Notes under the pieces: generated by a model
Told to the model about the DNA's origin: nothing
Database searches by the model: none
The model's input: the letters and a program-made list of their open reading frames with translations, nothing else
Shown: positions 27,266-37,229 of the stretch, piece after piece
How positions within the stretch are numbered: the first letter of the stretch is position 1
Layout of the letters: every line of letters begins with the position of its first letter
Made by a program: the position numbers and the translations under genes
Source of the DNA: Chrysomallon squamiferum
Lineage: Eukaryota; Animalia; Mollusca
Assembly (NCBI GenBank): GCA_012295275.1
Contig: CM022671.1
Span: forward strand, 3,844,001-3,908,000
Direction: 5' to 3'
Length of the DNA: 64,000 nucleotides

Positions 27266-30200
27266 ATGGAACGTCTATGTAAGTAAAATATATTTTAAAT
27301 ATTTTATCGAATATTATATTCACACATTTATGGCTGTAAATGTTTTTGTTTGTGTTTACATCTGCATATAAATAAATAAATAAATAAATATATATATATA
27401 TACACTGAAAATATACATGGCAGAAATGAATGGTTGCGTGCGTATGTTTAAATTCTGAGTAATCATTTGTCTGGTATTTTATAGCTTCCTCATATTTCAT
27501 CATCTTCATCATCCCCATCGTCATCAACATCATGATGATGATGACGATTATTAATTATGATTATGATTATTATGATTATTATTATTATTATTATTATTAT
27601 TATTATTATTATTATTATTATTACAGCTCTTGTCGTTGTGTTTATTCTTATTGGGACATGCGCCGCACACCGATTCCGGACACACGCGATTTCTCACGAA
27701 CCAGTTGACGGAAGATGTCCAGATCGGCTGGTGCTTTGTCCGTGCGGTGCAGGGAAAGTTGAAGTTGCTGTGAGAAGGTTAAAAATAAAAATAAATAAAT
27801 AAATAAATAAATAAAGTGTATAGATAAATGAATGTAGGTTCATTAGAAAGGAGAACGTTTTAATATTAAAGGTTATCTTAACGAATTAATGACTCTTGAA
27901 ACTGTTTATTATTAATGATTTACAATAACAATACTTTAATGAAATTCTCTCTCTCTCTCTCTCTCTCTCTCTCTCTCTCTCTCTCTCTCTCTCTCTCTCT
28001 CTCTCTCTCTCTCTCTCTCTCTGTTGTTGCTTTAGTGGCTTCTTTTTTGTCACTAAGGTAAGTTATTTTGATTTTAGATGTTTGCGTTTTGACCACTGGG
28101 GAAACAAATACTGTGAGAAGTGTCAGACCAGTCTTAATAGTAAAAGACTTTGTCGACTTTTCCGGAATTGTGCGATGTGTGACGGAAAAAGCCGAAGATG
28201 CACGAAATGTCCTTTCGATAAATATGGAAAATTGTGCAAAAAAGGTAAGAATAAGGGGTTCGATCATTTATATGCACAATTAAATATATATATATATATA
28301 TATATTCACACACACATGTATATGCAAAAATAGAAGAATTTACATATACATATATAAATTAATAAATAGTTATAAAATAATAAATTTAATAATAGACCTT
28401 CATAAATACTAAGAAACATGTTCTCAAATGCACACACTTTGATACCCTACTCACGTGTTTATTTTGCTTAATGGCTAATTAATCACTCTCTCTCTCACAC
28501 ACATACATACCCTCTCACTTATTAACACCACAACCATCATCACCAACAGCAACGACAGACTCTGATAAAATGATATAAAAATGATACTTTATAGTTTCTT
28601 CTCTGTTTTTAAACACCACGCAGATTGTAAATGTGAAAATGGCGCCACTTGCAACCAGAACGGTTCTTGTGTTTGTACGAAAGAGTACACTGGTGTTTAC
28701 TGTGAGCACAAAATAGGTGAGTAGGTGCAGACGCTGGTGTTTTACTGTGAGCACAGAAGAGGTCATTAGTTACATACAGTCATGTTTAGTGTGAGCACAA
28801 AATGGATGAGTAATTAAATGTTACACTTATTACTGAACTTTTAAAGGATTGATGAACTTATTAGTTCAGTGATGAAAATACAGTCGGCAGGAGTTATGTG
28901 CCCCTGAAAATATTTCAATATGGATCCTGTTATAAAATATTTCTTCATCCTATGACTCTCTTTTGGTTTATGAAAGGCAGTAGTGTGTACTTTCCAATAT
29001 ATGTTAATTACTTTTAAAAGATATGCTTTTCTTTAAAAAAAAAAAAATAATAATAATAATAATTGATTTTAAATTGATATGATTTTTATAAAATTATTGT
29101 TGTTGTTGTTGCCATTATTATTATTATTATTATTATTATTATTATTATTATTATTATTATTATTATTATTATTATTATTATTATTATTATTATTTTTATT
29201 TACCTTTCCTTAAATACAACAGTTTCAGTGCTACGTGTAATACTAGATTAAAAGTATATGAGTGAGTTGTTAAATAAAATATTTATTCTTCTTTTTCACT
29301 GACTGATAAATAAAATAAAAATGTTCACACAGGTGGAACATGCCAGTTTCCAGAACCACGAGAACATATGAGTTTAATGACGTACAACCTTTCTACCAGT
29401 GAGTTTTAATACCTACTCACCCATCCATCCATCCATCCATTCAGACATACCTTCATACATACACACACACACACATACATACATACACACAAACACACAT
29501 ACATACATACATACATACCTCCACACACACATAAACACACACACCTACATACAAATACAGTTTTTGAAGACAGTAATAAAACTGAATGAATGGATGAAAG
29601 AATAACTAGACAGACAGACAGATAAATCGATAAAAAATAAAAACAAAAATTTACGTTTAAAATTTCTAATCCGAACTAATGTCTGCAAGTTTATAAACGT
29701 TATCATCAGATATAATATTCGACTGAAAATGGATTTTATTTTCATTTTGCAGAAGTGTCTGTGATACTTCAAGTGGAGTCGACATGCGAGTTTGGTTACG
29801 AACTGATCGGTCCCACGAATATTTATTGTGAGAACGGAGAGTGGGACTCGAATCTGCCAAACTGTCGTAAGTTTTAATGATTTTGTATTTGTTTTTAAAC
29901 TGAAATTATTTCACAAAAATATGACTATCTGATAGTGCCCGTTACAAACACATCTTTCAATTTTATATATATTTTTTTTCTGGGTTTATGTGTCAGATCA
30001 AATCAAAATTAGAGAAATCGTTAATATAGGTGTTTTTAATCAATTGTCATCGTTGTTGTTAGTATTACTACTGCTACTACTACTATTACAACTACTCCAT
30101 TACTACTACTACTACTGCTGCTGCTACTACTACTACTACTACTACTAATAATAATAATAATAAAACTGATACTGTTATTACTAAACTTCTATAACTGTTG

Positions 30201-36200: not shown

Positions 36201-37229
36201 AGCTCCGTTTATTTGCGTTAGTTTAGTAAAATTCGATTCTGTCTAGGGATGTTTTATGTCCAGTTTAGTAATATTTTATTTGAATTTTAACTGATGTCTA
36301 ATTGGTGCATATTTTAACTTATACTGATGTATTATTACAGACATGAATTATCAGATCACAGAAAACATGTTGTGTGCAGGAAATCTGGAAAAACAGGCCG
36401 ACGCGTGTAAAGGTGATTCTGGAGGACCTCTTGTTTCAAAAGGTATGTCCCTTGTAATTTTTAAATTTATTTTCTCAACATTTTCTTTATTTAAATGTCT
36501 AAATACCTGTGGTTTGTTTGTATGTAACGATAGGTATAGATTACTTATACATTTATATTTATTTATTTTTGGCACGTCCCGTGAATGTATTATTCAATTT
36601 CCATGGCAGCTGCTTTCCTGTTTATGAGTATGTACATATAAATGATATCTGGCTGCTAACAAACTAGCCGTCCCCTAATTATATGTTAGGCTCTTAATCA
36701 GTGTTCAGCTGTAAATTAAAATGTGTCCAGTGTGCTGTTAAACAAAATACTGCTTCTTTGCTTACAGTTTCCATACAGAACATTGTTTGTCGTATGGGAA
36801 ACTGTTTTCTTTATTATGGACTATAAACACATTTGTTTCCAGTCCAGTGTTGAAATCATTACAGGAAAAATTACGGAAGAAAATACTACGAATATTATTT
36901 TTCCAACATACAATCGGGTCCACAAATTCACTGAAAAAAGATGACAAAAAAAAAAAAAAAAAATATGTTTTAATATATATAATTATGTATTACAGATACA
37001 TCTTTTTTTCAAAATGATATTGTTTTATATTTGAAATAAATAAAGGGAAATTCTTAAAAATAATAATCACTTTTATTTGTCAGGTTCTAATGGACGCTGG
37101 CACTTGGAAGGCATCATCAGCTGGGCCATCGATAAGAAGTGTGGTCACAACTACGGCATCTACACCCGAGTGGGCAGGTTTGTTCAGTGGATCAGGGACG
37201 TGACGGCCAAGATGGACTCAACTGACTGA
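27266..37229 (+). CDS. Limulus clotting Factor C-like secreted serine protease zymogen (signal peptide, Cys-rich, EGF, 4 CCP/sushi, S1 protease), ~697 aa; 1-nt frame discordance in exon 8
   Basis: Exons 27266-27278, 27627-27777, 28078-28244, 28624-28716, 29333-29398, 29753-29866, 30350-30536, 31026-31138, 31753-31856, 32551-32611, 33133-33350, 33987-34264, 35366-35645, 36341-36442, 37084-37229. Signal peptide [48 protein letters not shown]; catalytic triad TAAHC / DSDIALL / GDSGGP; activation site GL-IVNG. Confidence 0.9.
33560..33926. mobile_element. Foldback/MITE-like element with ~56-bp terminal inverted repeats
   Basis: 33560-33615 (attattatatcgtgaataactaaatacgagatgggtctaacaaaataactaattaa) is the reverse complement of 33871-33926 with one mismatch; inner IR ttttaaaatggttgatac / gtatcaaccatttcaaaa. 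Confidence 0.8.
34548..35266 (-). mobile_element. Internally deleted hAT transposon (Charlie/Buster, FAM200/ZBED5-like), 719 bp
   Basis: TIRs CAGTGGTTCTCAACC / GGTTGAGAATCACTG; perfect 8-bp TSD AGTTAATA (34540-34547, 35267-35274). Minus-strand transposase remnant [11 protein letters not shown]...[13 protein letters not shown]...[25 protein letters not shown] with an in-frame stop. Confidence 0.93.

What the first reader, a model, noticed from the sequence alone, without database searches (positions are those of the whole stretch)
27266..37229. Horseshoe-crab Factor C homologue with a reduced architecture (no LCCL, no C-type lectin) in a probable mollusc
Seen: the spliced N-terminus reads [106 protein letters not shown], followed by CCPs (including VFCPELP and KCLHVITCDEP), then VDLPLGRY...CDDNGKWTG...[15 protein letters not shown] and a protease domain. 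Known (recalled): Tachypleus/Limulus Factor C, the LPS sensor of the LAL assay, has the same Cys spacing (LCDETRFECKCG...CTYFYRWRPYCKPC...CPKYKRCQEC...CVTCPPNKYGTWCSGECQCKNGGIC) and the same landmarks (VFCPDL, CIKVITC, VKLPEGHY, CGRS...F-IWNG). Factor C also has LCCL, C-lectin and a fifth CCP; here the third CCP splices straight to the last CCP. Inference: a true Factor C lineage member rather than a generic sushi protease, and possibly the initiator of an uncharacterised microbial-sensing protease/complement cascade in this animal.
Basis: partly seen in the sequence, partly recalled or inferred. Interest (0 to 1): 0.82.

Follow-up and report, generated by a model that had tools for sequence, protein, structure and literature searches.

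The report
Snail Factor C-like protease (Factor L)
This is a real, transcribed gene, probably of a snail, for a predicted secreted protease laid out like the horseshoe-crab endotoxin sensor Factor C but without its middle block or its endotoxin-binding motif; it is likely the already named molluscan 'Factor L', which would act as a microbe-triggered complement activator.

Summary
The gene is real: 15 exons at 27266-37229 encode a 696-residue protein (signal peptide, Cys-rich head, EGF, four sushi domains, trypsin domain with intact triad). RNA contigs carry exons 2-8 in one record and join exon 8 straight to exon 9; later joins rest on genomic frame only. Introns 8-11 hold no LCCL or lectin exon. 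One correction: the window has two extra bases at about 31112-31116, absent from 4 of 4 laid runs; as assembled the gene is frameshifted. Spacing matches published Factor C coordinates minus the LCCL-lectin-CCP block (706 versus 696 residues), and the activation site is Leu-Ile (Factor C: Phe-Ile). But the LPS-binding RWR motif reads H-W-G, and the R-S chain-cleavage site is missing. No Factor C sequence could be retrieved, so homology was not tested by alignment or tree. The lineage is already in print: a 2023 supplement groups 'Factor L' of Lottia, Littorina and Octopus with arthropod Factor C. Verdict: likely a new member of Factor L, not canonical Factor C. Predicted role: surface-triggered, C3-cleaving initiator; ligand and substrate untested. 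No earlier scan note covers this gene.

The parts
27266..27278 (+). exon 1, start codon and first residues of the predicted signal peptide
   Evidence: ATG and GT donor; join to exon 2 not listed as an RNA joint, but X1 and X2 show depth in this bin
27627..27777 (+). exon 2: rest of signal peptide, N-terminal Arg-Phe-Arg (residues 20-22), start of Cys-rich head
   Evidence: on RNA contigs of X1 and X2
28078..28244 (+). exon 3: basic Cys-rich head; Trp62 in H-W-G where Factor C has R-W-R
   Evidence: RNA joint to exon 4; no Pfam family above cut-off
28624..28716 (+). exon 4: six-Cys EGF-like module
   Evidence: Pfam EGF_2 E 0.0017, below cut-off; RNA joints on both sides
29333..29398 (+). exon 5: first half of sushi 1
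   Evidence: RNA contigs X1, X2
29753..29866 (+). exon 6: second half of sushi 1
   Evidence: Pfam Sushi 27.2 bits; RNA
30350..30536 (+). exon 7: sushi 2
   Evidence: Pfam Sushi 29.4 bits; RNA joints
31026..31138 (+). exon 8: first half of sushi 3; holds 2 bases (about 31112-31116) that the laid runs lack
   Evidence: tables 4, 7, 8
31753..31856 (+). exon 9: second half of sushi 3, joined directly to exon 8
   Evidence: Pfam Sushi 39 bits; loose ends in X1 and X3 equal its first 30 letters
32551..32611 (+). exon 10: first Cys of the last sushi and start of a Cys-containing insert
   Evidence: splice signals and frame only
33133..33350 (+). exon 11: insert and rest of the last (fourth) sushi
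   Evidence: Pfam Sushi 36.3 bits; PDB hits are sushi domains of complement proteins
33987..34264 (+). exon 12: linker Cys430, Leu440-Ile441 activation site, catalytic His486, histidine-loop Cys pair
   Evidence: Pfam Trypsin 54.3 bits
35366..35645 (+). exon 13: catalytic Asp539, Cys559
   Evidence: Pfam Trypsin 64 bits
36341..36442 (+). exon 14: S1-pocket Asp635, catalytic Ser641 (TCT codon)
   Evidence: Pfam Trypsin 39 bits
37084..37229 (+). exon 15: protease C-terminus and stop codon
   Evidence: Pfam Trypsin 19.7 bits, just under cut-off

Best explanation
The gene encodes a 696-residue, predicted secreted trypsin-family zymogen (Cys-rich head, EGF, four sushi domains, protease) that is likely the molluscan member of the Factor C family ('Factor L') and would work as a surface-triggered initiator of the snail's complement-like cascade. 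Shown: the gene, transcription of exons 2-9, the domain order, the intact His-Asp-Ser triad, Asp at the S1 pocket, a Leu-Ile activation site, and a strongly basic head (20 Lys/Arg against 6 Asp/Glu). Inferred steps: (1) the basic Cys-rich/EGF head binds an anionic microbial surface, LPS or another polyanion, without the canonical RWR motif; (2) clustering lets neighbouring zymogens cut each other at Leu440-Ile441, as Factor C does at Phe-Ile; (3) the protease stays tethered through Cys430-Cys559; (4) it cuts after Arg/Lys in C3 or a downstream zymogen, with the sushi domains as docking arms, and so stands in for Factor B.
For: Gene and RNA. Domains. Catalytic residues. Comparison with published Factor C coordinates (CCP1 142-196, CCP2 199-255, CCP3 260-322, LCCL 325-421, lectin 436-565, CCP4 576-635, CCP5 702-749, protease 762-1019): the first sushi Cys is at 145 here; Factor C minus residues 323-635 is 706 residues against 696; the protease is 258 against 256; both have a long insertion inside the last sushi. 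Factor C Trp37 in mature numbering (recalled) is precursor 62; the snail Trp is also at 62, 83 residues before sushi 1 against 80. A published primer puts Factor C's first Cys at precursor 33, after V-D-L-G-L; here it is at 35, after V-D-G-R. The hydrophobic P1 combined with an Asp S1 pocket resembles Factor C's Phe-Ile site. A published 'FactorC/L' group holds three molluscan proteins. Factor C is an LPS-responsive C3 convertase, and knock-down of tick IrFC impairs phagocytosis of a Gram-negative bacterium. No C2/Bf had been identified in Biomphalaria.
Against: No alignment or tree against Factor C or Factor L was possible: single-exon searches found no relative, and the Cys-rich exon hit nothing in PDB and no Pfam family above cut-off. 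The spacing arguments are few and could partly be chance. RWR, essential for LPS binding in Tachypleus, is H-W-G here, and diverged horseshoe-crab copies without RWR were proposed not to sense LPS. The R-S heavy/light cleavage site and Pro-rich region are absent. The lectin and CCP4 domains, reported to aid LPS binding, are absent. Position 216 is Ala, not Gly. Tick IrFC expression responds to sterile injury, so a wound or clotting role is open. Factor L's architecture could not be read. No genome was held, so C3 and the absence of Bf in this animal are unchecked. The assembled allele is frameshifted.
Confidence: 0.55

Rival explanations
1. It is a Factor C/L homologue but not a sensor: a downstream or injury-responsive zymogen activated by an upstream chymotrypsin-like protease at Leu-Ile, acting in wound sealing or cascade amplification.
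For: RWR lost and lectin/LCCL absent. RWR-less horseshoe-crab paralogues are proposed not to recognise LPS. Tick IrFC is induced by sterile injury. An Asp S1 pocket does not naturally fit a Leu P1.
Against: The head is strongly basic, with an N-terminal Arg-Phe-Arg. Factor C autoactivates at a Phe-Ile site (that it also has an Asp pocket is recalled).
Confidence: 0.22
2. It is an independently shuffled EGF-sushi-trypsin protease that only resembles Factor C.
For: No search returned a Factor C. Atlas look-alikes of the Cys-rich exon are unnamed or EGF-type molluscan proteins scoring 0.77-0.86, leads only. The best PDB hits of the protease exons include generic proteases such as matriptase, protein C and plasminogen.
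Against: Matching positions of the first Cys, the Trp, sushi 1 and the interrupted last sushi, plus a hydrophobic activation site; a molluscan Factor C sister group is published. The protein library gave few candidates even for a trypsin exon (29 candidates, none passing), so the blanks are weak.
Confidence: 0.1
3. It is a genuine LPS sensor working exactly like horseshoe-crab Factor C, the central block being dispensable.
For: The N-terminal Cys-rich/EGF/sushi 1-3 fragment of Factor C suffices to bind LPS, and that fragment is what the snail keeps. Arg-Phe-Arg at residues 20-22 fits the basic-aromatic-basic pattern.
Against: RWR is replaced at the homologous site. The R-F-R lies outside the Cys scaffold, and a three-residue pattern is easily met by chance (2 such triplets in 696 residues).
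Confidence: 0.09
4. It is an ordinary full-length Factor C whose LCCL, lectin and extra sushi exons were lost from the assembly.
For: Joins 9-10 and 10-11 were not seen in RNA, and the assembly has a 2-base discrepancy nearby.
Against: Exon 8 joins exon 9 directly in X1 and X3. Introns 9 and 10 are 694 and 521 bases of low-GC simple repeats with no such frames. Phases 9-10-11 fit, the window holds no N, and about 930 coding bases would have to be missing.
Confidence: 0.04

Closest known systems
Molluscan Factor L (Lottia XP_009058759, Littorina MG596893.1, Octopus XP_014774764; labels and accessions seen in supplements 2 and 6 of PMC9835746; original description recalled as Gorbushin 2018, PMID 29501422, not held)
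   Same: Molluscan serine protease listed in one 'FactorC/L' group with arthropod Factor C. Recalled, not read: proposed to compensate for the loss of Factor B in gastropods and cephalopods.
   Different: Sequences and domain diagram could not be obtained, so orthology and identical architecture are inferred. The exon structure, the H-W-G replacement and the N-terminal R-F-R were not found in any text I could read.
Horseshoe-crab Factor C (P28175, Q26422) and tick IrFC
   Same: Order Cys-rich, EGF, three sushi, interrupted last sushi, trypsin domain; near-identical spacing; hydrophobic-Ile activation site; intact catalytic Ser.
   Different: No LCCL, no C-type lectin, four rather than five sushi, no Pro-rich region or R-S chain cleavage site, H-W-G instead of R-W-R, Leu-Ile instead of Phe-Ile; 696 against 1019 residues.
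Complement factor B/C2
   Same: Sushi domains in front of a trypsin-family domain; possibly the same job (C3 convertase).
   Different: No vWA domain: only 14 residues lie between the last sushi Cys and Ile441. It has a Cys-rich/EGF head and a canonical Ile-Val-x-Gly activation site.
MASP/C1r/C1s
   Same: EGF plus sushi plus trypsin domain; TCN-type Ser codon, histidine loop and split protease exons as in MASP-1 (recalled).
   Different: No CUB domains; four sushi rather than two; Leu rather than Arg at P1.

Membership tests
Chelicerate Factor C | N-terminal Cys-rich region plus EGF homologous to Factor C | tested here: inconclusive
   12+6 Cys head of matching length and Trp position; no Factor C sequence retrieved for alignment
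Chelicerate Factor C | Five CCP/sushi modules | tested here: not met
   Four
Chelicerate Factor C | LCCL and C-type lectin domains after CCP3 | tested here: not met
   No exon or intron frame hits them; exon 8 joins exon 9 in RNA
Chelicerate Factor C | Arg-Trp-Arg LPS-binding tripeptide | tested here: not met
   His61-Trp62-Gly63; motif defined
Chelicerate Factor C | R-S heavy/light chain cleavage site in a Pro-rich insert | tested here: not met
   The insert in the last sushi is Cys-containing, with no R-S pair and no RxxR
Chelicerate Factor C | Phe-Ile activation site | tested here: not met
   Leu440-Ile441: not identical, but the unusual hydrophobic P1 is kept
Chelicerate Factor C | Active trypsin-type catalytic domain | tested here: met
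   His486, Asp539, Ser641, S1 Asp635
Chelicerate Factor C | LPS-triggered autoactivation and C3 or factor B cleavage | not testable with these tools
   Needs recombinant protein
Molluscan Factor L | Groups with Factor C/L in a protease phylogeny | not testable with these tools
   No Factor L or C sequence obtainable; group seen only as figure labels
Molluscan Factor L | Sushi-containing trypsin protease without vWA (definition recalled, paper not held) | tested here: met
Molluscan Factor L | Same domain order as the described Factor L proteins | not testable with these tools
   Gorbushin 2018 not held; ten paper searches gave no text on its architecture
Factor B/C2 | vWA domain between sushi domains and protease | tested here: not met
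   No room and no Pfam hit; Bf architecture
MASP/C1r/C1s | CUB-EGF-CUB head | tested here: not met
   No CUB hit in any exon scanned; architecture

The most novel reading that the evidence does not exclude
The short snail form is the ancestral protostome Factor C, and chelicerates gained the LCCL-lectin-sushi block by insertion at or next to the split third sushi. The snail protein is a self-activating microbial sensor and C3 convertase in one chain that replaces Factor B in gastropods and binds lipid A through a relocated N-terminal Arg-Phe-Arg plus a basic Cys-rich head instead of RWR: a natural 696-residue minimal endotoxin sensor.
Probability: 0.15. Interest if true: 0.65.

Novelty: new member of a known kind. 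Interest (0 to 1): 0.35.

Why it matters
How gastropods activate C3 without an identified Factor B is open (stated for Biomphalaria in PMC8047071). An RNA-supported, full-length model of the Factor C-like candidate gives a defined protein to express and assay. If it autoactivates on LPS it would be a compact natural endotoxin sensor and would explain the trigger of snail complement. If it does not, it shows that LPS sensing is a chelicerate specialisation of an older protease. The existence of the lineage in molluscs is not news.

Tried and rejected
Homologue searches with single exons found nothing usable: exon 3 (no candidate), exon 11 (0 of 21 candidates), exon 12 (0 of 29), and the representative library with exon 3 (one hit, a bacterial-looking Cys/Thr repeat protein, rejected on reading it). 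Metagenome contig scans confirmed 0 of 201 and 0 of 477 pattern matches. These blanks are weak and are no evidence of novelty. PDB sequence searches showed no entry named Factor C among the rows listed. The ESM Atlas gave only sub-0.9 leads for the head and generic trypsin for exon 12. A single-sequence fold of exon 3 was unusable (pLDDT 53, pTM 0.24), so no fold search was run. An upstream donor after 31133 opens the frame in the assembly as it stands but was rejected because RNA uses the donor after 31138. No second copy of the gene lies in the window, and no NF-kB-type consensus site in the 1.67 kb upstream. No genome was held. Earlier-scan look-ups found no note on this gene. Papers not held: PMID 29501422, PMC6065167, PMC4162196. 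Passages of PMC8995041, PMC11312191, PMC10672478 and PMC8047071 have no occurrence of 'factor L'; PMC8960428 and PMC11359984 were searched for other terms and gave nothing on it.
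Full report
Observation. The region 27266-37229 holds a plus-strand animal gene of 15 exons in AT-rich, microsatellite-filled DNA. Exon borders were set from GT..AG signals and frame. 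Pfam on 12 exon pieces gave Sushi above cut-off for exons 6, 7, 9 and 11 and Trypsin for exons 12-14, with exon 15 just under the cut-off. Exon 4 gave only sub-threshold EGF hits, exon 3 only a weak zinc-ribbon hit (E 0.019), and exons 2 and 8 nothing; exons 1, 5 and 10 were not scanned.

RNA check. Five runs hold the 3' part; four were laid on 26900-31680: three RNA runs of one study (X1-X3) and one run of unrecorded kind that covers introns like DNA (X5). X1 and X2 each have one contig carrying exons 2-8. Four GT..AG joints are listed, and joins 2-3 and 5-6 follow from contiguous record coordinates. In X1 and X3 the letters hanging off exon 8 are the first 30 of exon 9, so the third sushi is made of exons 8 and 9 with nothing between. 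The X1 contig continues 422 letters beyond exon 8; exons 9-11 would account for 382 of them, but only 30 were shown. All four runs lack two letters at about 31112-31116. With those two bases removed the frame is open for 696 codons; with them, and with the donor that the RNA uses, it stops at codon 337. The simplest reading is an assembly error; a null allele in the sequenced animal is not excluded. Contigs show presence only, not tissue or level.

Is a middle block hidden? Factor C has LCCL (325-421), a C-type lectin (436-565) and CCP4 (576-635) between CCP3 and the last CCP (PMC10090249, abstract and first part of section 16). Introns 8-11 are 521-694 bases at 22-27% GC, against 48% for exons. 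None of 26 stop-free frames of 25 residues or more hits LCCL, lectin or sushi at E<=0.05; 3 of the 26 gave unrelated sub-threshold hits from low-complexity sequence. The reduced architecture therefore stands, unless the assembly lost about 0.9 kb of coding exons in intron 9 or 10.

Anatomy. Predicted signal peptide (about 1-18, by eye); Arg-Phe-Arg at 20-22; Cys-rich head 34-110 (12 Cys, 20 Lys/Arg, 6 Asp/Glu); six-Cys EGF; sushi at Cys145-201, 207-265 and 277-333; a last sushi at Cys339-426 with a long insert holding three extra Cys; linker Cys430; Leu440-Ile441; His486, Asp539, Ser641 (TCT); Asp635 at S1; Ala at the 216 position. There is no room for vWA and no CUB, so it is neither Bf/C2 nor MASP/C1r/C1s (architectures from passages of PMC9835746 and PMC11312191).

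Is it Factor C-related? I could not run the decisive test. Searches with single exons returned no relative, PDB listed no Factor C entry, and no genome was held. What can be shown is spacing against published numbers. Sushi 1 starts at 142 in Factor C, and its first Cys is at 145 here. Factor C without 323-635 is 706 residues against 696. The protease is 258 against 256 residues (one search prints 255 because it counted from 442; Ile is 441). Both have a long insertion within the last sushi. The essential Trp37 (passages of PMC10672452 and PMC9525263) is precursor residue 62 if the numbering is mature, which I recall but did not read; the snail has Trp62. A published primer puts Factor C's first Cys at 33 after V-D-L-G-L, against 35 after V-D-G-R here. 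The activation site has a hydrophobic P1, like Factor C's Phe-Ile (passages of PMC11836539). Together I put homology at about 0.85-0.9.

Against equivalence. PMC11836539 lists RWR, the R-S chain cleavage site, F-I and the active Ser as marks of canonical Factor C. The snail meets only the last; it has H-W-G, no R-S site and L-I. The same paper proposes that RWR-less paralogues do not recognise LPS. It should not be filed as Factor C proper.

What is known. PMC9835746 states that Cfc genes occur in arthropods and brachiopods. Its supplements 2 and 6, read whole as text, list a 'FactorC/L' group of four arthropod Factor C and three molluscan 'Factor L' proteins from Lottia, Littorina and Octopus, with accessions. 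I saw labels, not branch supports. The source is, by my recall, Gorbushin 2018 (PMID 29501422), seen only as a title in reference lists and not held. I recall that it reports loss of Bf in gastropods and cephalopods and proposes Factor L as the substitute. Ten searches gave no readable description of Factor L's domains, so whether the missing LCCL and lectin are already in print could not be checked. I think it likely, since a separate name was given. Subscription papers and unread supplements may bear on this. The organism is called a snail in unchecked notes on the same genome; my only related evidence is sub-0.9 Atlas leads dominated by molluscs.

Mechanism. Most likely (0.55) a secreted zymogen whose basic head gathers on anionic microbial surfaces, autoactivates in trans at Leu-Ile, stays linked through Cys430-Cys559, and cleaves C3 or a downstream zymogen after a basic residue. 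All four steps are inferred from anatomy and by analogy: Factor C is an LPS-sensitive C3 convertase, and tick IrFC is needed for phagocytosis of a Gram-negative bacterium but is induced by sterile injury (passages of PMC7962413); no C2/Bf had been found in Biomphalaria (passages of PMC8047071). Rivals: non-sensing downstream or wound protease (0.22), unrelated shuffled protease (0.10), exact LPS-sensor equivalent (0.09), full-length Factor C with lost exons (0.04).

Verdict. Observation confirmed, with a two-base correction. Interpretation partly supported. Likely a new member of a known kind (Factor L, Factor C family). Interest 0.35: a well-defined, testable candidate for the missing gastropod C3 convertase, but not a new lineage.

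Noticed in passing
window 31112-31116: Two bases present in the window are absent from all four laid runs (RNA and DNA-like); they frameshift the gene as assembled. Probable assembly error, possibly a null allele.
   Followed up: yes
window about 6700-13344, + strand: Carbonic anhydrase gene (Pfam hits on two exons) ending in a long open frame (11521-13344) rich in Gln, Arg, Pro and Thr with a basic RRRRKR cluster near its end; may be a shell-matrix-type enzyme with a low-complexity tail.
   Followed up: partly
window about 18500-25570, + strand: DEG/ENaC (ASIC-type) channel gene ending about 1.7 kb upstream of the protease start (Pfam ASC).
   Followed up: partly
window 39864-41431, - strand: Ankyrin-repeat SOCS-box gene, tail to tail with the protease gene (Pfam Ank and SOCS_box).
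   Followed up: partly
window about 45270-51340, + strand: Isocitrate dehydrogenase (IDH3-type by eye) gene; Pfam Iso_dh on one of two exons scanned.
   Followed up: partly
window 34909-35049 and 15746-16114, - strand: Fragments that resemble hAT-type and Tigger/pogo-type transposases (recalled); Pfam found no family at E<=0.01. The first lies in intron 12 of the protease gene.
   Followed up: partly
window 32551-33350 (exons 10-11): The insert in the last sushi carries an odd number (three) of extra Cys, which would leave a free thiol or an interchain bond; the exon 10 joins are not RNA-checked.
   Followed up: no
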